Assembly: GCA_002778465.1 (NCBI GenBank)
Contig: PFBV01000003.1
Coordinates: forward strand, 303,766-367,765
DNA length: 64,000 nt
From: Candidatus Magasanikbacteria bacterium CG10_big_fil_rev_8_21_14_0_10_36_32
Lineage (GTDB): Bacteria; Patescibacteriota; Patescibacteriia; Magasanikbacterales; GWA2-37-8
Direction of reading: 5' to 3'
The notes beneath the pieces were generated by a model. It worked only from the letters and a program-made list of their open reading frames with translations, did no database searches and was not told the DNA's origin. Shown here piece after piece: positions 5,864-64,000 of this stretch (positions within the stretch are counted from its first letter, which is position 1; every line of letters begins with the position of its first letter). The position numbers and the translations under genes are program-made.

Positions 5864-5936
5864 GGAGTAATAAATTTTTGAATAGCCACGGATATCCACT
5901 CTTTAAAAGCGGGCGGTCGTCAGATAAAAAGTTACT

Positions 5937-7459: not shown

Positions 7460-7462
7460 AGT

Positions 7463-8398: not shown

Positions 8399-8402
8399 AA
8401 TT

Positions 8403-24306: not shown

Positions 24307-24377
24307 AACTTCGTTCATTTCAGCGTTGACAGAATCATTAAAAAATGTTATCTATTAAACATAGTTCATTAAAATAT

Positions 24378-24430
24378 ATTCCCGGCCTTCGTTGGGTTTT
24401 GTTAGAAACAGATTCCAACGAAGGCCGGGA
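24378..24430. repeat. 17-bp perfect inverted repeat (GC-rich hairpin) at the left edge of GC-rich island 2
   Basis: TTCCCGGCCTTCGTTGG, 19-nt loop, CCAACGAAGGCCGGGAA. Confidence 0.6.
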
Positions 24431-24462
24431 ATTGTCCCGTCTTCCTTCTGTCCGCGGAGCGG

Positions 24463-25107: not shown

Positions 25108-25278
25108 GTCGCTTAGTTCTTTTTGTTAGTTCTTGGGTCCTTGGCGTTTTGGCGCTTAGGATCCTTTTTTATTTCATTTTTGCGGAGTATAATAGCAGTC
25201 TGTTCATTAATTTTATCTATGGTAAATTTGCGCGAAAAAATCAGCGGGCTTAATTTGTCCGTTGTGGAAGAAGGAGTT

Positions 25279-50129: not shown

Positions 50130-50221
50130 TTAAAACAAAAAAATAATATCATAATTCCAATAAAAAATCAAGAGCTTATTATATTATATATAGATAGCAG
50201 AGGAGGTTGATTCGTGGTATA

Positions 50222-52015: not shown

Positions 52016-52017
52016 TT

Positions 52018-52635
52018 ATGAAATTATTTTGTCAAGACAAACGAGGATTAACTTTGATAGAACTTTTAGTTAGTATTGGTATTTTTGTTTTGGTATCTGC
52101 CGCTCTAGCTTCTATTTTAAGTGTTGTGTTTCAAGCCAGAACAATTATTTGGGAACAATTATCTACTCAAAAAGAAGGTCGTCAGATTGTGCAAGATTTT
52201 ACCAATGAATTGCGTAGTGCGACTGCGTCGTCAATCGGTGCTTATTCTTTGGAATCAGCACAAAATGATGAAATTATTTTTTACAGCAATATAGACAGCG
52301 ATAGTTGGAGAGAACGAATTAGATATTTTTTGTCAGATGGAATATTACAAAAAGGAATTACAAAACCTAGTGGCACCCCTTTGGGTTACTCTACCTCAAC
52401 CGACGAAGTTATTACGGAGATGATACATGATGTTATTAATGGAACCACTACGCCAGTTTTTTATTACTATGATGAAAACTACACTGGTTCGGAGAACCCG
52501 ATGACGTTGCCAATTGTATTGTCAGAGGTTAGGGTGGTCGGTATAAAATTAATTTTGGAGGAAAATCCGCGGATGTCGCCAGCGCCATTGCAAGTTGAAA
52601 CTAAAGCGCAAATTAGAAATCTAAAAAGCAATTGA
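52018..52635 (+). CDS. Type IV pilin/pseudopilin-like protein
   Basis: KRG|LTLIELLVSIGIFVLVSAALASIL prepilin motif. Confidence 0.6.
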   Translation: MKLFCQDKRGLTLIELLVSIGIFVLVSAALASILSVVFQARTIIWEQLSTQKEGRQIVQDFTNELRSATASSIGAYSLESAQNDEIIFYSNIDSDSWRERIRYFLSDGILQKGITKPSGTPLGYSTSTDEVITEMIHDVINGTTTPVFYYYDENYTGSENPMTLPIVLSEVRVVGIKLILEENPRMSPAPLQVETKAQIRNLKSN

Positions 52636-52645
52636 TTGTATTGTT

Positions 52646-54037
52646 ATGATTAAAATTAGTTTTTTTAAAAATTCGTTTAAATTTGATTGTCGTGGCAATA
52701 TTATGATATTTGCAGTAATTTTTGGTGTAATTGCCACATCAGTTGTGACCATAGCCATCTCTAGTTATGCAATTTTTGAAAATCGTGCTTCTCTTAGTAA
52801 ACATAATCGCGAACAAGCCTTTCAAATTGCTGAGGCGGGAATTGATTATTACCGTTGGCATTTAGCTCACGATAAAGCCGATTATTATGATGGTAATAGT
52901 AGTTCTACACCCGGACCGTATGTTCATGAATATCAGGATAAAGATGGTAATCCAATAGGATATTTTTCTCTAGTTATTACTCCGCCAGTATCAACCTCAA
53001 CTATTATTTTAATAGAATCAACCGGTTGGGTGAATGATCAGCCGAATAGTCGCAGAACCATAAAAGCACGGTTGGGTTTTCCGGCCATGACTGATTATTC
53101 TTTTTTAACTAAAACAGATGTTTGGATTGGCGATACGGAAGTGACTCACGGAAAGTTTCATGCTAATGGCGGTATTAGATTTGATGGAACCGGTGATGCG
53201 CCAATTACCAGTGCTGTGGAAACCTATATTTGTAAAGCTCATCATGGTTGCGGTTGGGTATCAAAACCTGGAATTTGGGGAACGGGTGGTCCGACATTGT
53301 ATTGGGAATACCCTGTGCCGGCAGTCGATTTTAATATTGTCACTGCTAAGTTGGCCAATATTAAGTATACAGCCGATTCAGATGAAGGATTGTATTTAAC
53401 TTCATCCGGACAACAGGGTTATCGTTTACAATTTACTGCCGATGGTCAAATTAATGTTAATAAAGTTTTAACCACTGATTGTCATGATGGTTATGATGTA
53501 GACGCCAGTCATAAGACACTTTTTTGCATTGATGCCAAAACTTTTGACACCACCACAACTTATAATATGCCGACTAATGGTTATATATATGTTGATGATA
53601 CAGTTTGGGTTAATGGAATAGTTAATGGGCGAGCTACCATAGGCACAGCCGAAGACAAAGATATTATCATTAATGATGATATTATTTATGTTGCCAAAGA
53701 CGGTAATCATGTTTTGGGTTTAATTTCAGAACAAAATATTTTATTACCTTATCATTCCCCGGAAGATTTAGAAGTTGATGCGGCAATTTTGGCGCAAAAT
53801 GGCGCGGCTAAACGTTATTATTATTCAGGTAATACAAAAGACAGTTTGTTGATTTATGGTTGTGTTATTTCTAACGGAACATGGACTTGGAGTTGGGTGT
53901 CTGGTGGCGGTTCAATTGTTTCCGGTTATGAATATACCAATTCTACTTATGATGCTAATCTAACTTATAGCCCGCCACCCGGTTTTCCGGTAGGTTCGGA
54001 ATACAATATTATCAGCTGGGAAGAAATCAAGCCTTAA
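52646..54037 (+). CDS. PilX-N-like minor pilin / pilus-associated protein
   Basis: N-terminal hydrophobic helix then NREQAFQIAEAGIDYYRWHL resembling the PilX N-terminal domain (QAFYAAEAG). Confidence 0.4.
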   Translation: MIKISFFKNSFKFDCRGNIMIFAVIFGVIATSVVTIAISSYAIFENRASLSKHNREQAFQIAEAGIDYYRWHLAHDKADYYDGNSSSTPGPYVHEYQDKDGNPIGYFSLVITPPVSTSTIILIESTGWVNDQPNSRRTIKARLGFPAMTDYSFLTKTDVWIGDTEVTHGKFHANGGIRFDGTGDAPITSAVETYICKAHHGCGWVSKPGIWGTGGPTLYWEYPVPAVDFNIVTAKLANIKYTADSDEGLYLTSSGQQGYRLQFTADGQINVNKVLTTDCHDGYDVDASHKTLFCIDAKTFDTTTTYNMPTNGYIYVDDTVWVNGIVNGRATIGTAEDKDIIINDDIIYVAKDGNHVLGLISEQNILLPYHSPEDLEVDAAILAQNGAAKRYYYSGNTKDSLLIYGCVISNGTWTWSWVSGGGSIVSGYEYTNSTYDANLTYSPPPGFPVGSEYNIISWEEIKP

Positions 54038-54120: not shown

Positions 54121-54969
54121 ATGACAAAACAAATAGTTACAAAAGGAGTTATTACTGTCGCGGGTTTGGGAACGAGATTTTTACCGGTCACAAAAGCTAT
54201 GCCGAAAGAAATGTTGCCGGTTTTAGACAAACCAGTTGTACAGTATATTGTGGAAGAAATGGCTGCCAGTGGTATAAAAGAAATTATTTTTGTTACCAGC
54301 TCGCAGAAACGTGCCATTGAAGATCATTTTGATCATGATAGACAGTTAGAAAGTGTTTTAAAAGAAAAAGGTAAATACGACAGTATTAAACCGCTAGTGG
54401 AATTAATTGATAAATTACGTTTTTTTTATACTCGTCAATCAGAACCTTTGGGAAACGGGCACGCTTTATTGTGTGCCAAAGAATTTATTGGCGATGAACC
54501 GTTTGTTTTTTCAGATGGCGACAGTATTATTGACAGTCAGGTGCCGGTTATTAAACAACTATTAGATATTTATTATAAAAAAAACGCATCGGTCATTGGA
54601 GTACAAAGTATAGATAATAAAACGGATATGACTAAGTATGGCAATGTGTATGGTACAAAAACCGATGAGCCAAAAATTTATAAAGTAGAAAAATTTTTAG
54701 AAAAACCTTCAATTGAGGAGGTTTCCCCGCTTGGTTTGATTGTGGGTGGCATGAGATATGTTTTTACCAAGGATATTTGGCCTTTATTAGAAAAACAAGG
54801 CAGAGGAAGCGGTGGAGAAATTTGGTTGGCTGACGCAGCTAATCAGTTGTCTCAAGAAAAACCTTTTTATGCTTGTGAATATGAAGGAAAATATTTTGAT
54901 ACAGGTAATAAGTTGGCATTACTTAAAACAGCTATGTATTTTGCCAAGAAGGAAGGTTTGTTAGATTAA
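54121..54969 (+). CDS. galU: UTP--glucose-1-phosphate uridylyltransferase
   Basis: VITVAGLGTRFLPVTKAMPKEMLPVLDKPVVQYIVEE signature. Confidence 0.85.
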   Translation: MTKQIVTKGVITVAGLGTRFLPVTKAMPKEMLPVLDKPVVQYIVEEMAASGIKEIIFVTSSQKRAIEDHFDHDRQLESVLKEKGKYDSIKPLVELIDKLRFFYTRQSEPLGNGHALLCAKEFIGDEPFVFSDGDSIIDSQVPVIKQLLDIYYKKNASVIGVQSIDNKTDMTKYGNVYGTKTDEPKIYKVEKFLEKPSIEEVSPLGLIVGGMRYVFTKDIWPLLEKQGRGSGGEIWLADAANQLSQEKPFYACEYEGKYFDTGNKLALLKTAMYFAKKEGLLD

Positions 54970-55022
54970 TGATATTTTTTGTGTTATAATACTTCGGCAT
55001 TAAGATACAATTATCAAATCGT

Positions 55023-56423
55023 ATGATTAAAATTACAAAGAAATTTTATCCCCTATTTTTAGTAGTGGTTTTTTTATTATTTTCAGGTTTTGGCTGTAAA
55101 GGATTATCACAAACTGAATTGCAAGCTACAAAATCTGTGGAATTGGAATACTGGACAGTTTATGATGATGTTGATGCAATGCAAGCTCAAATTAATAATT
55201 ATCGAGCGCAAAGACCGTATTTGACTGTAACAATAAGACAATTGCGAGCTGATGAGTTATATCCGCGTTTGATTGAAGCTTTAGCGGAAGATAAGGGTCC
55301 TGATATTGTTTCGGTTCAGGCAAAAAATATTCGCAGTTTTCAAAGTAAATTGGCAACCATGCCATCCAGTGTAAAAGACACTACAATTACAGTTCAAAAA
55401 AATGTGGTTGGTACAGAAACAATAGTTAATACCGCTTCAATAAATTTACCCTCGGTTAGTCAGATTGACAGAGAATATGTTCAAACAGTTAAAAAGGATG
55501 TAATTGTTGATAACAAAATTTATGGTTTGCCAATGTCTTTAGATACTATGGCAATTTATTATAATAAAGATCTATTAGATCGTTCCGGCGTGCCGGAACC
55601 GCCAACAAATTGGAACGATTTTCAGGCGGCGGTTAGAAAGATTACAAAATACAACAAAGAAACAGGACAACTTATTCAGTCCGGTGCGGCTTTGGGCAGT
55701 AGTGCGAATATAGAAAATTTTGATGATATTTTATATATTCTTTTTAAACAAAGCGATGTGGATTTTATAGATAGAAATGGCCGGGTCGCCTTTCATGTTG
55801 TGCCAAGTAATTTAAAAAGTTCCGAGTCACCGTCTACAGGAGTGATGAGTTTTTATACCGATTTTGCTAATTCTGCTCGCGATACATATACTTGGAATTC
55901 CCAAATGGAAAATTCTTTAGACAGTTTTACCAAAGGGAAAGTCGCTTTCTTTTTTGGGTATAGTTATCATAATGGTATAATTAAGACTCGCGCTCCGCAA
56001 CTTAATTATGGCGTTACTCCGATGATTCAGCTTAATGCTGAAAAACCAGTTAACGCGGCGGATTATTGGATTCAAGCGGTGGTGCAGAAATCAAAAAAAC
56101 AAAATGAAGCATGGGGTTTGATAAATTATTTAACTCACAGTTCAAAAGCGGTTGAAGAATATTTAACTGCCACCAAGCGACCTGCCGCTATGCGTTCATT
56201 AATTAATAAACAAAAAGAAGATGTTGATTTGTCTCCATTTGCCGGGCAATTACTTATCGCTGAAAATTGGTATCGTGGTAAAAATTATGATGGTGCCTCG
56301 CAAGCTCTTGGCGCTATGGTTGAAGAATGGTTAAATACACCGATTACCGATGCCAGTCGAGTAGCTCAGTGGCAACAAGATGTTTTGAATCGCGCCGCTT
56401 CGAAAGTTAATCAAACTTTTTAG
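55023..56423 (+). CDS. Extracellular solute-binding lipoprotein (ABC transporter SBP family 1-like)
   Basis: Lipobox LFSGFGC; size and pattern are consistent with a sugar-type SBP. Confidence 0.45.
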   Translation: MIKITKKFYPLFLVVVFLLFSGFGCKGLSQTELQATKSVELEYWTVYDDVDAMQAQINNYRAQRPYLTVTIRQLRADELYPRLIEALAEDKGPDIVSVQAKNIRSFQSKLATMPSSVKDTTITVQKNVVGTETIVNTASINLPSVSQIDREYVQTVKKDVIVDNKIYGLPMSLDTMAIYYNKDLLDRSGVPEPPTNWNDFQAAVRKITKYNKETGQLIQSGAALGSSANIENFDDILYILFKQSDVDFIDRNGRVAFHVVPSNLKSSESPSTGVMSFYTDFANSARDTYTWNSQMENSLDSFTKGKVAFFFGYSYHNGIIKTRAPQLNYGVTPMIQLNAEKPVNAADYWIQAVVQKSKKQNEAWGLINYLTHSSKAVEEYLTATKRPAAMRSLINKQKEDVDLSPFAGQLLIAENWYRGKNYDGASQALGAMVEEWLNTPITDASRVAQWQQDVLNRAASKVNQTF

Positions 56424-56424
56424 T

Positions 56425-56865
56425 ATGAAATCCATTTTAAAATTAATTGTTATTTTAATTTGTTTACAGTTTTTATTGTTACCGTCGGATGCGGTTTTTG
56501 CTCAAGAAACAAGCGCTCAGTCGTCTGGTTTTCTTCCGGAATGTATATTAAACGGGGATATTAGCGGGGGACAATGCGGTGACAGTGCGGATATATTTTT
56601 ATGGTTAGCAATTAATGTTGGACGCTATTTGTTTTCGTTTATTGGAGCTTTGGCTTTATTATTTTTTGTTTATGGTGGTGTAATTTTAATTACCTCTCAA
56701 GGTAATCGTGAAAATGTCAGCAAGGGAACCAAAGCAATGGTGGCCGCCGTTACAGGTTTGGTGATTGCTTTTAGTGGTTATGCTTTAATTACTTTCCTTA
56801 GTCAATCGGTTGGAGTTAAATCTGAATTTTTATTAACTCCACAAAATACTGCTACTAAAAAATAA
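56425..56865 (+). CDS. Pilin-like array member 1: secreted two-helix protein (VirB2/TrbC-like topology)
   Basis: Signal peptide ...DAVFA|QE. Helix 1 LFSFIGALALLFFVYGGVILITSQGNRENVSKGTK, then helix 2 AMVAAVTGLVIAFSGYALITF. Confidence 0.5.
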   Translation: MKSILKLIVILICLQFLLLPSDAVFAQETSAQSSGFLPECILNGDISGGQCGDSADIFLWLAINVGRYLFSFIGALALLFFVYGGVILITSQGNRENVSKGTKAMVAAVTGLVIAFSGYALITFLSQSVGVKSEFLLTPQNTATKK

Positions 56866-56869
56866 ATTT

Positions 56870-57346
56870 ATGAAATTTTTAAGAGTTAAAATTTTAATTT
56901 GTTTGTTGGTTAGTTTATTTTTGGTTGCCAGTGTAAAAGCTGAAGAATGTGACCCTCTTTATCAATCATGTGAAGGACAGTCAGTTGAATCTGCTGAACA
57001 AGAATTGCAAGATATTTTGGGTGAATCACAATCGGTTCAAGAACCAAGCACTCAAGCAGAAGTGTATGAATTTAAAAATATTAAAAAACAAGCGGCCAGT
57101 TTGAATCCGTTGAATATTTCTGGTCCGTCTGATTTGTTTGCTAATGCTATAAATTTAATGATGGCCTTTATTGGTTCAATCGCCATCCTTTTATATATTT
57201 ACGCTGGATTTTTGTGGATGTCTGCCGCTGGTAATTCTGAACGGGTCGGTAAAGCTAAAACTATTCTTATTTGGACTACTTTAGGTGCGGTTGCTATGGG
57301 TGCCAGTTATATGATAGTTAAAACCGTGCTTGAGAAAGTGGGTTAA
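56870..57346 (+). CDS. Pilin-like array member 2
   Basis: Signal ...VKA|EE; IAILLYIYAGFLWMSAAGNSERVGKAKTILIWTTLGAVAMGASYMIV. Confidence 0.55.
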   Translation: MKFLRVKILICLLVSLFLVASVKAEECDPLYQSCEGQSVESAEQELQDILGESQSVQEPSTQAEVYEFKNIKKQAASLNPLNISGPSDLFANAINLMMAFIGSIAILLYIYAGFLWMSAAGNSERVGKAKTILIWTTLGAVAMGASYMIVKTVLEKVG

Positions 57347-57356
57347 TTATTATTTT

Positions 57357-57719
57357 ATGAAAAAAATAATATTATTTTTGACAATAGTTAGCTGTATATG
57401 GACAGCGATGCCTTTGAGCACAACCACAGTTAATGCGGCTGAACCAGAAACCGTGAAATTAGAAAATCCTTTAACAGTTGATGCTAATCCGTCGTCAATA
57501 ATTGGTTTGTTTATCAAAGCAATCTTAGGAATAGTTGGTGGGTTGGCTTTGGTTATGGCTGTGTATGGCGGTTTTCAATGGCTGACGGCCGCAGGCAACA
57601 AAGAAAAGATAGATAGTGGTAGTAAAACTATGCTTTGGGCGGTGGTTGGTTTGATACTTACTCTAAGCAGTTATTTATTGGTGGATACTTTCTTGAATTT
57701 TTTAAAGGGTGGCAGATAA
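57357..57719 (+). CDS. Pilin-like array member 3 (start refined)
   Basis: Signal ...VNA|AE; ILGIVGGLALVMAVYGGFQWLTAAGNKEKIDSGSKTMLWAVVGLILTLSSYLLV. Confidence 0.55.
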   Translation: MKKIILFLTIVSCIWTAMPLSTTTVNAAEPETVKLENPLTVDANPSSIIGLFIKAILGIVGGLALVMAVYGGFQWLTAAGNKEKIDSGSKTMLWAVVGLILTLSSYLLVDTFLNFLKGGR

Positions 57720-57805
57720 AAATTAAGATTGTGCGATGTTTCGTTTATTGTTATAATAAATATAAGTTAAAATATGATAAATTTTACTGGAAAGGGGGTG
57801 ACAAT

Positions 57806-58195
57806 ATGAGCAAATTATCAGTATATATAGCGTTTATTTTGGTTGCAGCTTGTGCTATGTTTGTTTTGACGCCAGTTTTAGCCGCTGATCCTATTACTGC
57901 AGGAGATCTTGGTTTAAGTTATGGCGCGGAAACAGGTTTGGGTACCAAAGATATCCGTACCACCGTTGCGCAGGTAATCAAAGTGGCGATGGGTTTATTG
58001 GGTATCGTGGCTGTCGTTATAATTTTAATCGGCGGTTTCACTTGGATGACTGCCGGTGGTAATGAAGATAAGGTCTCCGAAGCGAAGAAATGGATTTTCT
58101 CCGGTGTTATCGGTTTGGCTATTATCTTGTCGGCTTATGCTTTAACCAGCTTTATTATCAATCAGTTGGTCAACGCTACTACTAGTACGATATAA
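57806..58195 (+). CDS. Pilin-like array member 4 (start refined to the ATG after the AAAGGGGGTG SD)
   Basis: Signal ...VLA|ADP; GLLGIVAVVIILIGGFTWMTAGGNEDKVSEAKKWIFSGVIGLAIILSAYALTSF. Confidence 0.6.
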   Translation: MSKLSVYIAFILVAACAMFVLTPVLAADPITAGDLGLSYGAETGLGTKDIRTTVAQVIKVAMGLLGIVAVVIILIGGFTWMTAGGNEDKVSEAKKWIFSGVIGLAIILSAYALTSFIINQLVNATTSTI

Positions 58196-58204
58196 ACTTT
58201 TTTT

Positions 58205-58235
58205 ATCAGGGGGTTCGCGCGCGCAACCCCCTGAT
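58205..58235. terminator. Palindromic GC hairpin flanked by a T-run and an A-run (bidirectional terminator-like) splitting the array
   Basis: ATCAGGGGGTTGCGCGCGCAACCCCCTGAT-type palindrome (ATCAGGGGGTTCGCGCGCGCAACCCCCTGAT) with TTTTTTTT before and AAAAAA after. Confidence 0.5.
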
Positions 58236-58289
58236 AAAAAATTGGATTATGAACTTTTTAATGAAGATTTCATAATCCAGTTAAATCCT

Positions 58290-58712
58290 ATGAGTTTAAA
58301 CCGGAAAATTTTTTTATTCATTATTGTGACGGCCATCAGTGTCGGTTTTTTGTTGAATGTCAGAATGGTAAGGGGAGCGGATGATTATGGATTTGAACAA
58401 ACCGCACAAGGAACTGACTTGCCGGCTTTATCAATCAGTAAAGGTACACCAGAATCATTGGCTGAAATAATTGTAAAGCGAGTTTTATTTTTTGTTGGAA
58501 CAATTTTCTTTTTATTGATTCTTTATGCGGGAATAAGTTGGATGACTGCTGCTGGTTCCACTGAAAAAGTTAATACTGCTAAAACTATTTTAGAAACAGC
58601 TATTATTGGTTTGTTGGTTATTACCGCTTCCTATGCGATTTCTAATTATATTTTTGAAAAATTTACCGGTGTAAACAAAACTTCTACAGATATTCCCACT
58701 GCCACAGAATAA
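58290..58712 (+). CDS. Pilin-like array member 5 (start refined)
   Basis: Signal ...VRGA|DD; FFVGTIFFLLILYAGISWMTAAGSTEKVNTAKTILETAIIGLLVITASYAISNY. Confidence 0.55.
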   Translation: MSLNRKIFLFIIVTAISVGFLLNVRMVRGADDYGFEQTAQGTDLPALSISKGTPESLAEIIVKRVLFFVGTIFFLLILYAGISWMTAAGSTEKVNTAKTILETAIIGLLVITASYAISNYIFEKFTGVNKTSTDIPTATE

Positions 58713-58727
58713 TAATCATTAAAATTT

Positions 58728-59753
58728 ATGAGTTTTGGTTTTAAAGTTAAATTAACGATGTTGTTGGCAGCTGTTGGTATAATGACAGCTTCTGTTTTTT
58801 GTTATGCTGCAGATTTTGGTTTAGGAGAAGCCGGTTCTGTTTCTGGGCTGACAAAAAATAAAATTACCGAAGCTGGCAGTATTCCCGCTGTTTTGGGTGA
58901 TTTGGTTGGTATAGCGCTTTCATTATTAGGAATTTTTTTCTTTATTTTAGTTTTGTATGCCGGTTTTATTTGGATGACCGCCGCCGGTTCTGGTGAACAG
59001 GTTGATAAAGCAAAAAAGATTTTAATGTCTGGCGCTATTGGTTTGGTAATAGTTTTATCAGCTTATACAATTACCAGTTATGTTTTTACGGAATTTTTAG
59101 CTGGCGCGCCGACCGGACAAACAGGTGGTGATGTTTGCAAAACAGGGGCAGATGGACAAGATTGTGGTGATAATTCTCTTTGTTTGAATAAAAAATGTGT
59201 TTCGGAGTGTGTCTATACATATGGAACAAATGCTAAATGCAAAGCGGCAGGCAGTTGTGCGGGTGTGGAATTAACTGGTTTTTGTCCGGGCGGAACTAAT
59301 AATAAATGTTGCGTGCCTCAGTATGATTATGATTTTGTGCACAAAGTTAGTGGAGGAACATCTGATACCGGATCAGTAATGATATTTGAATCATGTTCAA
59401 CTAAAGGTGGTTATTGTATTAAGCAAGGTGATGCTGGTTGTGGAACATATCCTGGTTATAGTGAAATTCCTGGAAATTTTTCTGATTGTTCAGGTGAAAC
59501 TTCATCTTGTTGTGTTAACAGTTGTCGCACAAAAGGCGGTATGTGTCTCAGTGCCAATGAATGCAGTAATGCGTCAGGAAAAGAAGAGGCTGAATCTTGT
59601 GGAGATGGACAAGTTTGTTGTGTAACCTGCGTATCTCAAGGTGGAAGTTGTTTTTTTTCTGGTAGTGAATCTTGCAGTGGCAAAGTATTGAGTGGTTCTA
59701 AAAATGGTTGTGGTACCGGTTTAAGTTGTTGTATAGGCGGATTTTTACAATAA
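58728..59753 (+). CDS. Pilin-like array member 6 with long Cys-rich C-terminal extension (about 3.5 tandem roughly 38-aa CC-containing repeats)
   Basis: ILVLYAGFIWMTAAGSGEQVDKAKKILMSGAIGLVIVLSAYTITSY, then CCVPQ...KGGYCIKQGDAGCG, SSCCVNSCRTKGGMCLSANECSNASG, CCVTCVSQGGSCFFSGSESCSG and CCIGG. Confidence 0.6.
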   Translation: MSFGFKVKLTMLLAAVGIMTASVFCYAADFGLGEAGSVSGLTKNKITEAGSIPAVLGDLVGIALSLLGIFFFILVLYAGFIWMTAAGSGEQVDKAKKILMSGAIGLVIVLSAYTITSYVFTEFLAGAPTGQTGGDVCKTGADGQDCGDNSLCLNKKCVSECVYTYGTNAKCKAAGSCAGVELTGFCPGGTNNKCCVPQYDYDFVHKVSGGTSDTGSVMIFESCSTKGGYCIKQGDAGCGTYPGYSEIPGNFSDCSGETSSCCVNSCRTKGGMCLSANECSNASGKEEAESCGDGQVCCVTCVSQGGSCFFSGSESCSGKVLSGSKNGCGTGLSCCIGGFLQ

Positions 59754-59781
59754 TGTTTTTAAACTTCTTTTTAAATAATTT

Positions 59782-60276
59782 ATGAAAAAACTTTTTGTTC
59801 AATTACTCATTGTCACTTGTTTATTTATACCGACCATGGCATTAGCTGATACTTTTGGTTCAGGCTTATTAAGTCAATCGGTTCAAGGTGTTGGTTTAGA
59901 ACAGAATTTAGAAAATAGCGTGGCCAATGTCATTAGTACAGTTTCAACCGTGGTCGGCACGATATTTTTAATCTTGACTGTGGTGGCAGGAATTATGTGG
60001 ATGACCGCCGCTGGCAATGAAGATAAAATTTCTAAAGCTAAACAAATGTTGGCCGCCGCCGCCGTCGGTTTATTTATTGTTATGTCGGCTTACACAATTA
60101 CTTATTTTGTCACCAAAAAAGTTGGTAATGCTTCTGGTGGTGGCACAGGAGAAACGACTTGTAGTTGCGCCGGATGTTATTGTTCCACAGTGACAGCGTG
60201 TACAAGTGATGTGGGTACAGCATTGACAGGTACTACTTGTTCAGGAGTGTGTTGTCAACCAACTTTTGCTGATTAA
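59782..60276 (+). CDS. Pilin-like array member 7 with short Cys-rich tail
   Basis: Signal ...ALA|DT; IFLILTVVAGIMWMTAAGNEDKISKAKQMLAAAAVGLFIVMSAYTITYF, then TCSCAGCYCSTVTACTSD...CSGVCCQP. Confidence 0.6.
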   Translation: MKKLFVQLLIVTCLFIPTMALADTFGSGLLSQSVQGVGLEQNLENSVANVISTVSTVVGTIFLILTVVAGIMWMTAAGNEDKISKAKQMLAAAAVGLFIVMSAYTITYFVTKKVGNASGGGTGETTCSCAGCYCSTVTACTSDVGTALTGTTCSGVCCQPTFAD

Positions 60277-60283
60277 ATTTTTT

Positions 60284-60652
60284 ATGAAGAAATTTATTGT
60301 TTTATTTATCGCTATATTGTTACTGTTGTCGCCGGCTATGTCGGCTGCTGAGGGTTTGGGTGATGCCGCAGGAAAACTTGGTTCGTTTCAGACAGGTGGA
60401 TTAAGCAGTGATTTGGGTGGCACGGCGCAAAATGTGGTTAAGGCCATATTTTGGGTGGTTGGCACAACTTTTCTTTTATTATCAGTTTATGGTGGTATTG
60501 TTTGGATTAAAGCGGCTGGCCGAGAGGAAGAAGTAAATCGCGCTAAAAAAATTATTGTTGCTGCTGTTATAGGATTAGTCGTTGTTTTTGCGTCTTATGC
60601 AATAACAAATTTTGTAATGAACAGGGTACAAGGAATTGAAACTACAGAATAA
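60284..60652 (+). CDS. Pilin-like array member 8 (start refined)
   Basis: Signal ...MSA|AEG; FLLLSVYGGIVWIKAAGREEEVNRAKKIIVAAVIGLVVVFASYAITNF. Confidence 0.55.
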   Translation: MKKFIVLFIAILLLLSPAMSAAEGLGDAAGKLGSFQTGGLSSDLGGTAQNVVKAIFWVVGTTFLLLSVYGGIVWIKAAGREEEVNRAKKIIVAAVIGLVVVFASYAITNFVMNRVQGIETTE

Positions 60653-60681
60653 AATTTTTTAAAGTAATTAAATTTATTTTT

Positions 60682-61095
60682 ATGAAAAAAGTTTTGATTT
60701 TATTGGCTATGTGGCTGATTAGCGGAATACTATGTTGTAATATGACAATGGCGGCAGATGGAGGAATGGCGGAGCGTATAGCGGAAAAAGCTGGTTATAC
60801 TACCGAAGGAATAACTGAATATAGTTTATCTCAAAACATTGGTGTGATAATTCGGAGTGTTTTGTCAGTTCTCGGTGTAATATTTTTAGTTTTGACTATA
60901 TATGCCGGAATTTTATGGGGAACAGCTGCTGGTAATGAAGATAAGGTTGATAAAGCCAAAAAAATTCTGATTTCCGCATTTATTGGTTTGGTAATTGTTG
61001 GAGCCGCTTACGGAATTACCTCTTTAGTCTTTTATTTTCTTGGAGTTGGTTCGGCGCCGTCAACCGATGTTGATGTACCGTGGTCTCAACAATAA
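60682..61095 (+). CDS. Pilin-like array member 9
   Basis: Signal ...TMA|AD; IFLVLTIYAGILWGTAAGNEDKVDKAKKILISAFIGLVIVGAAYGITSL. Confidence 0.55.
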   Translation: MKKVLILLAMWLISGILCCNMTMAADGGMAERIAEKAGYTTEGITEYSLSQNIGVIIRSVLSVLGVIFLVLTIYAGILWGTAAGNEDKVDKAKKILISAFIGLVIVGAAYGITSLVFYFLGVGSAPSTDVDVPWSQQ

Positions 61096-61107
61096 TTATT
61101 ATAAAAT

Positions 61108-61566
61108 ATGAAAAATATTTCTAAGACAAAGTTTATTTTAACCGTAATAAGCATACTGACTATAACAGGAACTATTTTAGCGTTTGTTCCTGATTTTGCG
61201 AGTTCGGCCAATTTAAGTACGGAAATGGAAGCTCAATTAAAATCCGCGGCGGAAAGTGGTGCTGGTTATGGCGCGCCGACAGATCCTCGCACTACAGCCA
61301 GTGTGATCATTCGTTCATTACTTGGAGTGGTAGGAATAGTGATGGTTTGTTTGATGATTTATGCCGGTTTTATTTGGATGACCGCTGCCGGCAATGAAGA
61401 TAAAGTGGCGACGGCAAAAAAAATAATTGCCTCGGCGGCAATTGGTTTTATTATTGTGCTGACAGCATATTCAATTACTTGGTTCCTGACATATACGGCT
61501 TTTGGCGGCAGAAGTACACAATTTCCTCAAGATACATCAGAAGACCCATGGGGAAGCACTGATTAA
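61108..61566 (+). CDS. Pilin-like array member 10
   Basis: VMVCLMIYAGFIWMTAAGNEDKVATAKKIIASAAIGFIIVLTAYSITWF. Confidence 0.55.
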   Translation: MKNISKTKFILTVISILTITGTILAFVPDFASSANLSTEMEAQLKSAAESGAGYGAPTDPRTTASVIIRSLLGVVGIVMVCLMIYAGFIWMTAAGNEDKVATAKKIIASAAIGFIIVLTAYSITWFLTYTAFGGRSTQFPQDTSEDPWGSTD

Positions 61567-62645
61567 GAAAAAATTTGTTTCAGAATTTTTTCATTAACCA
61601 ATTTTGAAAGATTGGGTTTGGTAAAAATATCAGGCCGACGGATTATTTCTTGTAATGCGTCGGTTATTTTGTTTAATTCTGGAATTTGCCGTCCATAATT
61701 ATTTTTTTCGACAAATCGTACATTGGCTTCTTCTTGTCCGGGAATAGGCATAGACAGAAGAGCTGGTTTTTGAAGGAATAAAGTTTCAGTAACACTTAAT
61801 CCGCCTGGTTTGGTTAGAATCACGTCAGCCAAACGCATTAGTTCATCTATTTTGGTAGTATAGGTAATTACTCGATAATTTATTGAATTTAATTGAAATT
61901 TATTTAATTCTTTAAATATTTTTTTATTATTTTTTCCTACCACTATAATTAAGTTTATATTTTTAAAATCATTTATTATTTCTTTGACAAATGGGACAGG
62001 ATCAATCAAACCAATGCCACCGGTTAAAATTAGAATTGTCGGCCAGTCATTGTTAATGCGCCATTTATTTTTTAATTCATTTATATTTTTTTCTTTTAGA
62101 AATTCAGGATGTATCGGAATGCCGGTATAAAAAGCTTGCCGACCCATTTGTTTCAGTTCATCGCAAATATCATTACTCGGAGTAAAAAAATAACGAATTT
62201 GCGGAGCTAAACAAACTTTGTTGATTTCATAATCGGTAATCAAAAAATCAATAGGTATTTTGTCGGCGTATTGATTAGCAAAAGCTGAGGCAAGAAAATG
62301 GGTGCAAAATATTTGATCTGGTTGATATTCTTTAATAAATTTATTAAATTTCCGCAAATTTATTTTTAAGAGCAAACTTATTTTGTTTAAAACATCCGGA
62401 CTTTTTGAAAAATCAAACATTTGATAAAGCAGCCCGTAAATATTAGGCAGATGGCGTGCTAAAAAATGATACGATGAAGTAATGCTTTTTCCGAATAAGC
62501 CGCCAGAATAATCCATAATATCAATATGCGCGGATTTGATTTGAGGATATTTCGTCCGACAAGTTAGATATAACGCTTCAGCAGCACGGACATGTCCGGT
62601 GCCGGCTGAGCAGGAAAGAAATAATATTTTTTTTGGTTGAGACAT
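61563..62645 (-). CDS. GT28-family glycosyltransferase (MGDG synthase / processive diacylglycerol glycosyltransferase-like)
   Basis: N-terminal ILFLSCSAGTGHVRAAEAL (G-rich loop with His); C-terminal LTKPGGLSVTE motif of the GT-B MurG/MGD family. Confidence 0.55.
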   Translation of the reverse strand: MSQPKKILFLSCSAGTGHVRAAEALYLTCRTKYPQIKSAHIDIMDYSGGLFGKSITSSYHFLARHLPNIYGLLYQMFDFSKSPDVLNKISLLLKINLRKFNKFIKEYQPDQIFCTHFLASAFANQYADKIPIDFLITDYEINKVCLAPQIRYFFTPSNDICDELKQMGRQAFYTGIPIHPEFLKEKNINELKNKWRINNDWPTILILTGGIGLIDPVPFVKEIINDFKNINLIIVVGKNNKKIFKELNKFQLNSINYRVITYTTKIDELMRLADVILTKPGGLSVTETLFLQKPALLSMPIPGQEEANVRFVEKNNYGRQIPELNKITDALQEIIRRPDIFTKPNLSKLVNEKILKQIFS

Positions 62646-62708
62646 AAAATGTTATTATTTAAATAATAACAATAAAGAGTATTTTTGACAATAAAAAAAG
62701 CACAAAGG

Positions 62709-62780
62709 GGTGACCAGAGGGAGTTGAACCCTCGCTAGCGGGACCACAACCCGCTGTTCTACCGTTGAACTATGGCCACC
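62709..62780 (-). tRNA. tRNA-His (anticodon GTG) with encoded G-1
   Basis: Reverse complement G-GTGGCCATAGTTCAACGGTAGAACAGCGGGTTGTGGTCCCGCTAGCGAGGGTTCAACTCCCTCTGGTCACC-C; extra 5' G pairing with the discriminator C. Confidence 0.85.
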
Positions 62781-62847
62781 CTTTTATGCTCTTAAATATG
62801 AGAAATTGTAACAGGTTTGAAAGAAAAAATCAAGTTGAAGTATCTTT

Positions 62848-62922
62848 TGGTGACCTCGCTAGGAATCGAACCTAGGTCCAGAGCTTAGAAGGCTCTTGTT
62901 CTATCCATTGAACTACGAGGCC
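62848..62922 (-). tRNA. tRNA-Arg (anticodon TCT), CCA encoded
   Basis: Reverse complement GGCCTCGTAGTTCAATGGATAGAACAAGAGCCTTCTAAGCTCTGGACCTAGGTTCGATTCCTAGCGAGGTCACCA. Confidence 0.85.
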
Positions 62923-63019
62923 GCTTAGAAAATGACAATTTACATTCTATCATATTTTGTTGGAAAAATCAAGGTGTGATATAATATATATAATAAACCT
63001 TAAAATCTTAATTTTTAAT

Positions 63020-63505
63020 ATGCGTAAAATTTTAATAGTTTTTATTTTGATGTTTTCAATATTGTTTATCGCCACCCCGGCTCAAGCTGCTTTTGGTTTG
63101 GAACAAACTGCGCAAAAAGCTGGTTATAATTTAGGCGCTACCAGCCCGGCCACCACGGTTAAAACAGTGGTGACAGTAGTTTTAGGATTTGTTGCTTTGA
63201 TATTTTTTGCTTTAACATTATATGCCGGCATAATTTGGATGACTGCCCGCGGAAAAGAAGACAAAGTGGAATCAGCCAAAAATATTATAGAATCGGCGAT
63301 ACTTGGTTTAATAATTGTTGGAGCCGCTTATGCCATTACGACTTTTGTTTTAAGCCGATTGGGGAGTAGTGGAACAACCGAAGGTTGTTGTATTCAATAT
63401 AATGAAGACTCTACCACAAAAGGTTCGGTTGAAGGGGTGCTTAATGATGAATGTTTGAATGAGGGTGGTGTTTGGTTTGAGGGAAAATGTCCATCAATAC
63501 AATAA
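63020..63505 (+). CDS. Pilin-like array member 11 (detached copy) with Cys-rich tail (start refined)
   Basis: Signal ...AQA|AFG; IFFALTLYAGIIWMTARGKEDKVESAKNIIESAILGLIIVGAAYAITTF, then GCCIQYNEDSTTKGSVEGVLNDECLNEGGVWFEGKCP. Confidence 0.6.
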   Translation: MRKILIVFILMFSILFIATPAQAAFGLEQTAQKAGYNLGATSPATTVKTVVTVVLGFVALIFFALTLYAGIIWMTARGKEDKVESAKNIIESAILGLIIVGAAYAITTFVLSRLGSSGTTEGCCIQYNEDSTTKGSVEGVLNDECLNEGGVWFEGKCPSIQ

Positions 63506-63545
63506 CTATAAATTTATAGAATTTAAAAGGTTTTTTGCATTACCC

Positions 63546-63577
63546 TTGACATAAAAGCCTTTTTTTGATACTATTAT
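63546..63577 (+). promoter_or_regulatory. Sigma-70-type promoter for rpsO
   Basis: TTGACA (63546-63551), 17-nt spacer, TACTAT/TATTAT. Confidence 0.5.
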
Positions 63578-63578
63578 C

Positions 63579-63640
63579 AAGCGAAGTGAGTGAAATGAAA
63601 ATTTATTTTCATTTCCAAACGAAACGCAGATAAAATGAGT
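63579..63640 (+). promoter_or_regulatory. Conserved 5' leader element, copy B (hairpin 63592-63615), upstream of rpsO
   Basis: AAGCGAAGTGAGTGAAATGAAAATttATTTTCATTTCCAAACGAAACGCAGATAAAATG. The hairpin arms differ from copy A at two positions with compensatory changes. Confidence 0.5.
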
Positions 63641-63741
63641 TTACTCTCTTTTAGGCACTTAATTTAATAAGCAAACATAAAGGTTTGTCCCGAACTGTCA
63701 GGAACATGCTCTTGATTAGCTCGGTAAAATATAAGGCATGT

Positions 63742-64000
63742 ATGTTAGACATAAAAAAGAAGCAGCAAATTATTAAAAAATTTGCTATTCACGCCGGCGA
63801 TACCGGTTCCAGCGAAGTTCAAATTGCTATTTTGACCGCTGAGATTGACGAATTAATTCAACACCTCAAACAGCATCCGAAGGATCATTCTTCACGTCGC
63901 GGTTTGCTCCGCAAAGTCAGCGGGCGTCGTCGTTTAATGCGTTATTTGAAGAAAGAAAATGAAAAGTCTTATGAGGAGTTGATGAAAAAATTAAAAATCA
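63742..64000 (+). CDS. rpsO: 30S ribosomal protein S15 (3' end truncated by the window edge)
   Basis: MLDIKKKQQIIKKFAIHAGDTGSSEVQIAILTAEIDELIQHLKQHPKDHSSRRGLLRKVSGRRRLMRYLKK... Confidence 0.85.
   Translation, partial: MLDIKKKQQIIKKFAIHAGDTGSSEVQIAILTAEIDELIQHLKQHPKDHSSRRGLLRKVSGRRRLMRYLKKENEKSYEELMKKLKI

What the first reader, a model, noticed from the sequence alone, without database searches (positions are those of the whole stretch)
56425..63505. Tandem array of 11 paralogous secreted two-helix pilin-like proteins with a conserved W-M-T-A-A-G-N-E-D-K loop
Ten consecutive genes (56425-61566) plus an eleventh at 63020-63505 encode 120-340-aa proteins with the same architecture. Each has an SPase-I signal peptide ending in AxA, an about 30-50-aa variable segment, and hydrophobic helix 1 ending in Y-A-G-(F/I)-x-W-M-T-A-A-G. 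A conserved basic loop N-E-D-K-(V/I)-x-x-A-K-K-x-I follows, then hydrophobic helix 2 (A-x-I-G-L-x-I-V-x-S-A-Y-x-I-T-x-F). The topology is processed leader, helix, short charged loop, helix. This is the topology of conjugative/T4SS pilins (VirB2, TrbC, F-pilin TraA), not of type IV-a pilins. Genes with the G/FTLIE type IV-a prepilin motif are encoded separately at 50.2-52.6 kb. No VirB4/VirD4/VirB6 machinery lies in the window. The T4P assembly genes (pilBCMNO) are 35 kb away. A lipoprotein SBP, galU, a PilX-like gene and a GT28 glycosyltransferase flank the array. Eleven divergent copies with hypervariable N-terminal and C-terminal exposed segments around an invariant core suggest a diversified surface filament or adhesin repertoire, possibly for host or partner attachment in an episymbiont. 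Alternatively this is a novel family of membrane-inserted secreted effectors.
Basis: partly seen in the sequence, partly recalled or inferred. Interest (0 to 1): 0.85.

Follow-up and report, generated by a model that had tools for sequence, protein, structure and literature searches.

The report
VirB2-like pilin array in a Patescibacterium
The eleven small genes are real and belong to the already described family of conjugation-type (VirB2-like) "T4SS pilins" that candidate-phyla-radiation bacteria carry in tandem arrays, so this is a known kind of locus, with some undescribed local features.

Summary
Exactly eleven + strand genes (56425-61566 and 63020-63505) encode signal peptide, variable segment, helix, short charged turn, helix. 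All eleven hit Pfam PF18895 (T4SS_pilin), nine above threshold. A profile of the family aligns in register with genuine VirB2/TrbC pilins (hhalign 80%, E 1.4e-5).

The window comes from a Candidatus Magasanikbacteria genome (Patescibacteria, class ABY1). Arrays of 2-11 VirB2-like pilin genes in Patescibacteria were published in 2025. A six-gene array is essential in Southlakia epibionticum (2023).

Details not found in the papers checked:
- No T4SS machinery lies within about 80 kb.
- Gene order p1-p11 is collinear across many species. Orthologues are 40-80% identical and paralogues 22-44%, which argues against a fast-varying repertoire.
- p4 alone has its own promoter-like site, a strong ribosome-binding site and a conserved downstream hairpin, so it is probably the major subunit.
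- p6 carries a conserved cysteine-rich ectodomain.
- A GalU-like gene, a solute-binding lipoprotein and a glycolipid-synthase-like glycosyltransferase flank the array in most relatives.

Filament formation remains unproven.

The parts
56425..56865 (+). p1: pilin-domain protein, 146 aa. The most divergent copy (no W-M motif), with an N-terminal Cys pair.
   Evidence: PF18895 28.7 bits. Orthologues in relatives are fused to p2 as roughly 300-aa two-domain proteins.
56870..57346 (+). p2: pilin-domain protein, 158 aa, with a long acidic N-terminal segment and a Cys pair.
   Evidence: PF18895 24.9 bits, below the 26.6 cut-off. Family HMM E 2e-29.
57357..57719 (+). p3: pilin-domain protein, 120 aa.
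   Evidence: PF18895 40.3 bits. The start at 57357 agrees with the JGI gene call.
57729..57801 (+). Expression signals of p4: -35-like TTGTGC (57729-57734), extended -10 TGTTATAAT (57749-57757), Shine-Dalgarno GAAAGGGGGTGA (57790-57801).
   Evidence: Read from the sequence. The same SD, and a TGnTATAAT-like box in some relatives, precede most p4 orthologues. Other array genes have A/T-only upstream sequence.
57806..58195 (+). p4: minimal pilin, 129 aa; proposed major subunit.
   Evidence: PF18895 43.8 bits and the best TrbC/VirB2 hit of the array (22.5 bits). It is the most conserved paralogue: 44-80% to orthologues, core 53-59 of 69 residues identical. It is flanked by 86- and 94-nt spacers.
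58197..58245 (+). Stable stem-loop directly after the p4 stop codon. Possible attenuator or 3'-end stabiliser; it has no U-tail.
   Evidence: MFE -28.6 kcal/mol, z = -6.6, 0 of 200 shuffles as stable. The gene followed by the most stable 70 nt of the array is the p4 orthologue (or a duplicated p4-like copy) in 21 of 24 related arrays. The 25-nt core is exactly conserved in 7 other species' loci and occurs once in the window.
58290..58712 (+). p5: pilin-domain protein, 140 aa.
   Evidence: PF18895 22.0 bits, below cut-off. Family HMM E 3e-47.
58728..59753 (+). p6: modular pilin, 341 aa. Pilin hairpin (about residues 52-124) plus a C-terminal ectodomain of about 215 aa with 28 of the protein's 29 Cys.
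   Evidence: PF18895 35.1 bits. 29 Cys. Orthologues keep an invariant Cys pattern. In the AlphaFold model the beta-rich modules 140-205 and 265-340 have pLDDT about 80. No PDB match.
59782..60276 (+). p7: pilin-domain protein, 164 aa, with a Cys-rich C-terminal tail (9 Cys in the protein).
   Evidence: PF18895 34.8 bits.
60284..60652 (+). p8: pilin-domain protein, 122 aa.
   Evidence: PF18895 43.8 bits.
60682..61095 (+). p9: pilin-domain protein, 137 aa.
   Evidence: PF18895 39.1 bits.
61108..61566 (+). p10: pilin-domain protein, 152 aa; last gene of the contiguous run.
   Evidence: PF18895 35.5 bits. AlphaFold hairpin pLDDT about 90.
63020..63505 (+). p11: pilin-domain protein, 161 aa, with a Cys-containing C-tail. 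Separated from p10 by the glycosyltransferase gene and two tRNA genes, and followed by rpsO.
   Evidence: PF18895 29.5 bits. tRNA-His and tRNA-Arg at 62707-62922. S15 gene downstream.
55023..56423 (+). SBP_bac_1 solute-binding lipoprotein-like gene. Its stop lies 1 nt before the p1 start; likely co-transcribed partner of the array.
   Evidence: PF01547 89.7 bits. A homologue ends next to the first pilin gene in 28 of 36 related arrays that have enough upstream sequence. Two loci chosen through the SBP show the same layout.
54121..54969 (+). GalU-like nucleotidyl transferase, a conserved upstream neighbour.
   Evidence: PF00483 93.5 bits. Directly upstream of the SBP gene in 22 of 36 related arrays.
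61563..62645 (-). MGDG-synthase-like GT28 glycosyltransferase, convergent with p10 and sitting between p10 and p11.
   Evidence: PF06925 61.3 bits plus PF04101 42.5 bits. Present at this position in 21 related arrays. Replaced by a GT2 gene at the same position in L093.
50207..54037 (+). Three co-oriented type IV pilus minor-pilin-like genes (two N_methyl, one PilX_N-like) upstream of galU. Context only, not part of the family.
   Evidence: The same genes lie upstream in 10-19 related loci.

Best explanation
This is a chromosomal array of eleven VirB2-like 'T4SS pilins' (Pfam PF18895) of a Candidatus Magasanikbacteria bacterium (Patescibacteria, class ABY1).

Proposed mechanism:
1. Each product is exported by Sec and cut by signal peptidase I.
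2. It then sits in the membrane as a helical hairpin. The N- and C-termini face outward and the conserved 'W-M-T-A-A-G-N-E-D-K...A-K-K' turn lies at the cytoplasmic face.
3. As proposed for other Patescibacteria, a Gram-positive-type VirB4 machine encoded elsewhere in the genome uses these hairpins to build a surface filament or conduit needed for life on a host cell.

The array is not a set of interchangeable variants. It is an old, fixed set of differentiated subunits:
- p4 is the abundant core subunit. It has its own promoter-like site, a strong ribosome-binding site, a conserved downstream hairpin, the most conserved sequence and almost no tails.
- The other ten are low-abundance specialised subunits. 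Some display extra outward-facing modules: the cysteine-rich domain of p6 and the Cys-containing tails of p7 and p11.

Shown here: family membership, architecture, remote VirB2/TrbC homology, synteny, positional orthology, and the p4 signals.
Inferred: membrane topology, processing, major/minor roles, and dependence on VirB4.
From the literature: essentiality of the homologous array in S. epibionticum, and presence of VirB4 in this genome.
Not shown by anyone: that these proteins form a filament.
For: Family and fold:
- PF18895 hits all 11 proteins, 9 above the gathering score.
- NCBIfam 'Mbov_0395 family pilin-like conjugal transfer protein' is the top, sub-threshold, hit for all ten proteins scanned, p1-p10.
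- p4 hits TrbC/VirB2 at 22.5 bits.
- hhalign against eight genuine VirB2/TrbC proteins gives 80% probability, E 1.4e-5, with the hairpin in register.
- The AlphaFold hairpin has pLDDT about 90.

Source and literature:
- The source genome is Ca. Magasanikbacteria CG10_big_fil_rev.
- Published arrays hold 2-11 pilins with mean identity 25% and maximum 54%; here the mean is 31% and the maximum 44-55%.
- Six PF18895 genes, SEML1_0014-0019, are essential in S. epibionticum and sit beside VirB6, PrgI and VirB4.
- Both GC-36% CG10 Magasanikbacteria assemblies are listed as VirB4-positive.

Fixed, differentiated subunits:
- Order p1..p11 is collinear in more than 15 species.
- Orthologue identity is 63% in the core, 39% in the N-terminal part and 28% in the C-tail.

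p4 as major subunit.

Outward-facing termini:
- Cys-rich or Ig-like domains are fused C-terminal to the hairpin in p6 and in relatives.
Against: - No T4SS machine gene lies in the 64-kb window, in the 10 kb upstream or in the 8 kb downstream.
- None lies within 10 kb of any of the 86 related loci.
- VirB4 in this genome rests on a published table and on my inference of which assembly the window comes from.
- The TrbC/VirB2 Pfam model is not reached (22.5 against 27.9 bits), and hhalign at 80% is suggestive, not conclusive.
- Fold searches return only generic helical hairpins, and there is no sequence hit to any solved structure.
- The same module occurs 2-8 times in single polypeptides without internal signal peptides. 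It also occurs at the N-terminus of proteins of 700 to more than 3000 aa. Both are awkward for a simple polymerising pilin.
- No filament of this family has been observed.
Confidence: 0.6

Rival explanations
1. The two-helix module is a membrane anchor, not a polymerising pilin. The eleven proteins stay in the cytoplasmic membrane as hairpins and present their variable N- and C-terminal segments (cysteine-rich or Ig-like domains) on the cell surface as adhesins or receptors.
For: - The same module sits at the N-terminus of Big_5/TIG-rich proteins of 593-704 aa and of more than 2285 to more than 3400 aa in related genomes.
- Proteins with 2-8 concatenated hairpins and no internal leaders look like ordinary polytopic membrane proteins.
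- There is no assembly ATPase nearby.
- The fold is a generic hairpin.
Against: - The most conserved and apparently most expressed member, p4, has almost no ectodomain: about 25 aa at the N-terminus and 8 aa at the C-terminus. It would therefore anchor nothing.
- The most conserved part of the family is the turn, not the exposed ends.
- There is remote homology to VirB2/TrbC.
- In S. epibionticum the array lies inside the T4SS cluster.
Confidence: 0.22
2. The array is a repertoire of alternative major pilins used one at a time. This would be antigenic variation or host-range switching, as proposed for the virB2 paralogues of Bartonella and Anaplasma.
For: - There are many divergent copies with faster-evolving exposed ends.
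- The published discussion suggests adaptation to different host strains.
Against: - Gene order and one-to-one orthology are conserved across many species. Orthologues are more alike than any two paralogues.
- Only p4 carries its own promoter-like site, SD and hairpin.
- Copies are 60-73% identical at DNA level, with no long identical tracts or invertible or recombination-type repeats.
- All six copies are individually essential in S. epibionticum.
Confidence: 0.1
3. The array belongs functionally to the type IV pilus, whose minor-pilin genes lie directly upstream, or to an envelope glycolipid or sugar pathway (GalU, SBP, GT28). In this reading it does not belong to a T4SS.
For: The co-oriented cluster N_methyl x2, PilX-like, GalU, SBP, p1..p10 has short gaps. 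This block is conserved in many relatives.
Against: - The eleven proteins have SPase-I-type leaders and lack the prepilin-peptidase motif.
- The minor-pilin genes accompany the array in only 10-19 of 86 loci.
- Homologues in Saccharimonadia sit in the T4SS cluster.
Confidence: 0.06
4. They are small secreted membrane-active peptides, such as bacteriocin/immunity, holin-like or effector proteins.
For: Small size, leader peptides, hydrophobic helices and tandem paralogy.
Against: - No bacteriocin, immunity or holin family is hit in Pfam or NCBIfam.
- The locus is a conserved chromosomal core locus with flat GC content.
Confidence: 0.02

Closest known systems
VirB2-like pilin arrays of Patescibacteria (Quinonero-Coronel et al. 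2025, PMC12102498; S. epibionticum SEML1_0014-0019, Wang et al. 2023, PMC10633639)
   Same: - Same Pfam family (PF18895).
- Same architecture.
- Tandem genes, or genes separated by one non-pilin gene.
- Same low paralogue identity.
- Same phylum.
- The array size of 11 equals the published maximum.
   Different: - Here the array is far from any T4SS gene, whereas in S. epibionticum it lies inside the cluster.
- Here it is embedded in a conserved GalU, SBP, array, glycosyltransferase, pilin, rpsO block next to type IV pilus minor-pilin genes.
- The paper reports arrays as most abundant in Microgenomatia and Saccharimonadia. It says nothing about solute-binding proteins or glycosyltransferases.
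- I did not find the collinear orthology or the p4 signals in the four papers I read.
VirB2/TrbC conjugative pilins (Pfam PF04956; A. tumefaciens T-pilin, RP4 TrbC)
   Same: - Leader peptide, two hydrophobic helices and a short polar turn.
- hhalign 80% probability with the helices in register and a shared G-x-x-W-M motif.
- Some homologues also score on PF04956.
   Different: - Below the PF04956 threshold.
- The turn is about 7 residues longer.
- The mature N-terminal segment is longer (25-60 aa).
- No adjacent virB1/virB3/virB4, which flank every genuine VirB2/TrbC gene fetched whose record is annotated (seven of eight).
- The host is a monoderm.
- Cyclisation is unknown.
virB2 paralogue arrays of Bartonella and Anaplasma (as cited in PMC12102498)
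   Same: Several tandem divergent VirB2 copies in host-dependent bacteria.
   Different: Those are discussed as antigenic or host-range variants. Here the copies are ancient, collinear across species and unequal in expression signals.
Mbov_0395 family pilin-like conjugal transfer protein of Mycoplasma ICEs (NCBIfam NF045849)
   Same: It is the top NCBIfam hit for all ten proteins scanned (p1-p10), over the same hairpin region, and it is also a wall-less or monoderm context.
   Different: All scores (14.5-35.3 bits) are below the 40-bit cut-off. That family is a single-copy ICE gene, not a chromosomal array.
Modular type IV pilins with bulky C-terminal modules (e.g. Streptococcus sanguinis PilB/PilC). 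Analogy from my own knowledge, not tested here.
   Same: A polymerisation module carrying an extra outward-facing domain, present as a minor subunit beside a plain major pilin. p6 and the Big_5/TIG fusions look like this.
   Different: Unrelated fold and a different assembly machine.

Membership tests
Pfam PF18895 T4SS_pilin | Score at or above the curated gathering cut-off (26.6 bits) | tested here: met
   Nine of 11 pass (28.7-43.8 bits). p2 (24.9) and p5 (22.0) fall just below but are clear family members by the family HMM, with E 2e-29 and 3e-47.
Pfam PF18895 T4SS_pilin | Architecture: leader, hydrophobic helix, short polar turn, hydrophobic helix | tested here: met
   Hydropathy, alignment and AlphaFold hairpin with pLDDT about 90.
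Patescibacteria VirB2-like pilin array (PMC12102498) | Two or more pilin genes in tandem, or separated by one non-pilin gene | tested here: met
   Ten contiguous genes, plus an eleventh after one protein-coding gene and two tRNA genes.
Patescibacteria VirB2-like pilin array (PMC12102498) | Low identity among copies (published mean 25%, maximum 54%) | tested here: met
   Mean 31%, maximum 44% over the full length; maximum 55% in the core.
Patescibacteria VirB2-like pilin array (PMC12102498) | The genome encodes the Patescibacteria-clade VirB4 machinery | not testable with these tools
   - Absent from the window and its flanks.
- Published Table S1 lists both candidate assemblies (GCA_002773185.1, GCA_002778465.1) as VirB4-positive.
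- I could not obtain a Patescibacteria VirB4 sequence to search with.
VirB2/TrbC pilins (Pfam PF04956) | Score at or above the gathering cut-off (27.9 bits) | tested here: not met
   The best is p4 at 22.5 bits, E 1.3e-4. p3 and p8 score 11-13 bits.
VirB2/TrbC pilins (Pfam PF04956) | Profile-profile homology to genuine VirB2/TrbC | tested here: inconclusive
   hhalign 80.3% probability, E 1.4e-5, 64 columns, both helices in register. This supports a remote relationship but is below the usual 90-95% comfort level.
VirB2/TrbC pilins (Pfam PF04956) | Gene sits in a virB1-virB2-virB3-virB4 type cluster | tested here: not met
   No such neighbours here or in 86 related loci. Seven of the eight genuine VirB2/TrbC genes fetched have them; the eighth record carries no annotation.
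VirB2/TrbC pilins (Pfam PF04956) | Polymerises with lipid into an extracellular pilus | not testable with these tools
   Needs multimer modelling, cryo-ET/EM or biochemistry.
Type IV (class III signal peptide) pilins | N-terminal G/(F,M)TLIE prepilin-peptidase motif (PF07963) | tested here: not met
   Absent from all 11. Present in the separate genes at 50207 and 52018.
Bacteriocin / immunity / holin families | Any Pfam or NCBIfam match to such a family | tested here: not met
   None at E up to 1.

The most novel reading that the evidence does not exclude
In ABY1 Patescibacteria the VirB2-like pilins have become a separate appendage module, genetically uncoupled from the VirB4 cluster. It would be a heteropolymer with one major subunit (p4) and about ten fixed minor or modular subunits. 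It would be co-encoded with a dedicated solute-binding-type lipoprotein and with enzymes that make UDP-glucose and a glycolipid (GalU, MGDG-synthase-like GT). That raises the possibility of a pilin-glycolipid filament, by analogy with the pilin-phospholipid lattice of conjugative pili, or of glycosylated pilins. The same hairpin would also serve as a general incorporation or anchor module for giant adhesins.
Probability: 0.15. Interest if true: 0.75.

Novelty: new member of a known kind. Interest (0 to 1): 0.35.

Why it matters
Patescibacteria make up a large share of uncultured bacterial diversity and appear to live attached to host cells. Their T4SS and its pilin array are essential in the one species tested, and their role is unknown. 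This locus adds no new kind of system.

It does give testable hypotheses for that open question:
- which copy is the structural subunit (p4);
- that the copies are non-redundant and anciently fixed rather than variable;
- that some are modular, domain-displaying subunits;
- that a conserved lipoprotein and glycolipid/sugar-nucleotide enzymes travel with the array in one large class.

If a filament is eventually seen, these features say what to look for in it.

Tried and rejected
- Foldseek search of the p6 model against the PDB. Nothing reaches E <= 0.001, and every hit falls on the hairpin, so the cysteine-rich domain stays unassigned.
- Profile search of the family against PDB sequences: no hit at E up to 10.
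- Looking for VirB4 near the array. I scanned 86 related loci (about 1.4 Mb) for 450-1300-aa Walker-A ORFs. The four candidates were Mg-chelatase-like, UvrA-like and DnaA (two loci; one was scanned). The 10 kb upstream and 8 kb downstream of the window are housekeeping genes. I had no Patescibacteria VirB4 sequence to search the big collections with.
- Published Table S3, which would list this genome's T4SS genes, is truncated in the stored copy before it reaches this genome.
- Rfam finds only tRNAs in the window at gathering thresholds, so the p4 hairpin is not a described RNA family.
- The consensus terminator scan did not flag the p4 hairpin, because it lacks a T-run.
- Recombination-based variation: no long identical repeats between copies.
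- The GC-rich stretch at 24.3-25.1 kb gave only chance-level miRNA matches far below threshold.

Full report
**1. What is there**

The ORF list and a family HMM run over all six frames show exactly eleven related genes, all on the + strand. Ten run contiguously from 56425 to 61566. The eleventh is at 63020-63505. A glycosyltransferase gene on the - strand and tRNA-His and tRNA-Arg separate it from the rest.

Two starts differ slightly from the longest ORFs. p3 starts at 57357 and p5 at 58290, in agreement with independent gene calls on other assemblies of the same organism.

Each protein has a leader with basic residues, a hydrophobic stretch, and small residues at -3 and -1. After the leader come a variable segment of 20-60 aa and two hydrophobic helices joined by a short polar segment. 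AlphaFold, given an 85-sequence alignment, models p10 as helix 60-92, turn 93-96, helix 97-132, with pLDDT about 90 in the hairpin.

The exact string occurs only in p7 and p10. Only three Gly and one Tyr are invariant. Paralogues are 22-44% identical overall and 23-55% in the 69-aa core.

**2. What family it is**

All eleven proteins hit Pfam PF18895 'T4SS_pilin', nine of them above the curated cut-off. For all ten proteins scanned against NCBIfam (p1-p10), the best hit, sub-threshold, is the Mycoplasma ICE 'pilin-like conjugal transfer protein' family. p4 also hits TrbC/VirB2 (PF04956) at 22.5 bits, below the 27.9 cut-off.

To test the link to true conjugative pilins, I fetched eight annotated VirB2/TrbC genes from plasmids. 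Seven of them lie between a virB1-type gene (a lytic transglycosylase in six) and virB3; the eighth record carries no annotation. I aligned them and compared the profiles. hhalign gives 80% probability, E 1.4e-5, over 64 columns. Helix 1, turn and helix 2 are in register, and the family's W-M aligns with VirB2 'ISWMFG'. This supports a remote relationship but is not conclusive.

Fold searches cannot discriminate a two-helix hairpin, and no solved structure matches by sequence. None of the eleven has a prepilin-peptidase motif. That motif is present in the separate genes at 50207 and 52018.

**3. Where it comes from and what is already known**

[quoted passage not shown] The locus tags are COU29_02525-02575, the proteins are PIT88626-PIT88635, the contig is 513 kb, and the annotation is 'hypothetical protein'.

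The literature already covers this kind of locus:
- Quinonero-Coronel et al. 2025 searched 3,035 Patescibacteria genomes with PF18895 and PF04956. [quoted passage not shown]
- Their genome table includes both GC-36% CG10 Magasanikbacteria assemblies, assigns them to class ABY1 and marks them VirB4-positive.
- Wang et al. 2023 showed that in Southlakia epibionticum six tandem PF18895 genes (SEML1_0014-0019) lie beside VirB6-, PrgI- and VirB4-like genes and are essential for epibiotic growth.
- A 2025 review calls this the first potential pilus of a monoderm T4SS.
- A 2024 perspective states that the role of the system is completely unknown.
- NCBI names close homologues 'pilin'.

The family is very large. 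An exhaustive HMM search finds 83,265 representatives of 50%-identity clusters at E <= 1e-3.

**4. Context**

No window ORF that I scanned is a T4SS machine component. The 10 kb upstream of the window and the 8 kb downstream are housekeeping genes. GC content is flat across the window.

In another Magasanikbacteria genome the whole neighbourhood is collinear. The order there is RuvB, two N_methyl genes, a 464-aa gene, GalU, SBP, the pilins, GT28 on the - strand, a pilin, NYN and PNPase.

A scan of species-representative genomes returned 80 loci, and my HMM finds up to 13 pilin ORFs per locus in them. Among the 36 arrays with at least 5 pilins and at least 3 kb of upstream sequence:
- 28 have an SBP_bac_1 homologue ending next to the first pilin gene, usually 2-30 nt away;
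- 22 have GalU immediately before that SBP gene.

Across all 57 arrays with at least 5 pilins, 21 have a clear MGDG-synthase-like GT28 between the last two pilins. In a second arrangement one pilin gene precedes the SBP gene, so the SBP lies inside the array.

Two loci picked through the SBP rather than the pilin show the same block. In one of them a GT2 replaces the GT28 at the same position. The SBP is better conserved than the pilins, at 54-80% identity. None of these loci contains VirB4. Published Table S3 flags the VirB2 hits of another Magasanikbacteria genome as not near virB4. The 2025 paper does not mention solute-binding proteins or glycosyltransferases.

**5. The copies are old and unequal**

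Best-hit mapping shows that the order p1-p2-p3-p4-(p5/p6)-p7-p8-p9-p10-p11 is kept in more than 15 species. Orthologues are 40-80% identical, more than any pair of paralogues. Between orthologues the core is 63% identical, the N-terminal part 39% and the C-tail 28%. At DNA level the copies share only 60-73% over 118 nt, with no long identical tracts. This argues against recent amplification or recombination-driven variation and for fixed, non-redundant roles.

p4 stands out in several ways:
- It is the most conserved copy, with 53-59 of 69 core residues identical.
- It has the shortest tails and the best TrbC/VirB2 score.
- It is flanked by 86- and 94-nt spacers, where other gaps are 4-29 nt.
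- It is preceded by TTGTGC-17 nt-TGTTATAAT and by GAAAGGGGGTGA.
- It is followed by a hairpin of -28.6 kcal/mol (z = -6.6).

In 21 of 24 related arrays, the gene followed by the most stable 70 nt of the array is the p4 orthologue, or in two cases a duplicated p4-like copy. Most p4 orthologues carry the same Shine-Dalgarno sequence. The 25-nt hairpin core is exactly conserved in seven other species' loci, while other species have different sequences that still form a strong stem. I read p4 as the abundant core subunit and the hairpin as an attenuator or 3'-end stabiliser. This is an inference, because no expression data were available.

**6. Modular members**

- p6 (341 aa) carries a C-terminal region of about 215 aa that holds 28 of its 29 Cys. 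The Cys pattern is invariant in 18 orthologues. It is modelled as two beta-rich modules with pLDDT about 80 and has no PDB match.
- p7 and p11 have shorter Cys-containing tails.
- p1 and p2 are fused into one two-hairpin protein in close relatives.
- Elsewhere in related genomes the same hairpin heads Big_5/TIG proteins of 700 to more than 3000 aa. These lie next to a signal peptidase I gene.
- Single polypeptides with 2-8 hairpins and no internal leaders exist.

Cysteine-rich and Ig-like domains placed C-terminal to the hairpin fit a topology with both termini outside and the conserved turn inside. These fusions are also the main support for the rival view that the module is simply a membrane anchor.

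**7. Verdict**

The most likely reading (0.6) is a VirB2-like pilin set that serves the Patescibacteria T4SS encoded elsewhere, with p4 as major subunit and ten specialised subunits. The main rival (0.22) is a non-polymerising anchor for surface domains. Variation-repertoire, T4P-linked and bacteriocin readings are unlikely.

The kind of locus is already published and has a Pfam family, so novelty is low. I did not find the ABY1-specific block (GalU, SBP, glycosyltransferase), the collinear orthology or the p4 signals in the four papers I read. They are worth a short follow-up. Filament formation, the link to VirB4 in this genome and any role of glycolipid remain untested.

Noticed in passing
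window 57729-58282: p4 has its own promoter-like site, a strong Shine-Dalgarno sequence and a very stable downstream hairpin whose 25-nt core, AGGGGGTTCGCGCGCGCAACCCCCT, is identical in seven other species' loci. A second, weaker inverted repeat follows at 58240-58282.
   Followed up: yes
window 54121-56423 and 61563-62645; L005, L092, L093 and about 30 other loci: GalU-like, SBP_bac_1 lipoprotein-like and MGDG-synthase-like glycosyltransferase genes flank or interrupt the pilin array in most ABY1 relatives. In L093 a GT2 gene replaces the GT28 at the same position. The SBP has no ABC permease nearby.
   Followed up: partly
window 56425-57346; P0002, P0004, P0007: p1 and p2 are separate genes here, and p2 has its own leader. 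In close relatives they form one protein of about 300 aa with two hairpins and no internal leader. This is a gene split or a gene fusion.
   Followed up: partly
L040, L042, L077, L080, L051, L024, L075: Genomes that also carry a big array have a second locus: signal peptidase I, HisRS, a pilin-plus-Big_5 protein of about 700 aa, then a giant protein (more than 2285 to more than 3400 aa, TIG/Big_5) with the same pilin hairpin at its N-terminus. Signal peptidase I and HisRS were Pfam-checked only in L042; the other loci were matched by ORF sizes.
   Followed up: partly
P0242-P0285: Many family members are single polypeptides with 2-8 tandem pilin hairpins (for example 552 aa with 6, 820 aa with 8) and no internal signal peptides.
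   Followed up: partly
window 63020-64000; S. epibionticum SEML1_0024-0025: A solitary pilin gene lies next to rpsO (ribosomal protein S15) both here (p11) and in S. epibionticum. There that pilin is non-essential, unlike the six in the T4SS cluster.
   Followed up: no
window 24300-25130: GC-rich stretch (0.45 against about 0.35) with overlapping ORFs in several frames. It has no Pfam hit for 24463-25107 and only chance-level Rfam matches. Nature unknown.
   Followed up: partly
window 47494-48156: A 220-aa protein built of about six repeats of a 'W-D-D/E-W...H-P-N-G-x-V-I-R...F-x-L-N-G' unit, with no Pfam match.
   Followed up: no
window 3557-11288: Co-oriented block of a 768-aa TPR protein, three ORFs without Pfam hits (a fourth weakly DUF7743) and a 961-aa CarboxypepD_reg/Big_5 protein. 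It may be another surface-protein operon.
   Followed up: no
L013, L016, L018, L020-L023 and many others: Many species-representative MAGs that carry typical Patescibacteria pilin arrays are titled 'uncultured Gammaproteobacteria bacterium', and one is titled 'Acutalibacteraceae'. These look like submission-label artefacts.
   Followed up: no
L076, L078: In some relatives a six-gene pilin array lies within about 5 kb of dnaA. This echoes the published remark that Patescibacteria T4SS genes often sit near the replication origin.
   Followed up: no
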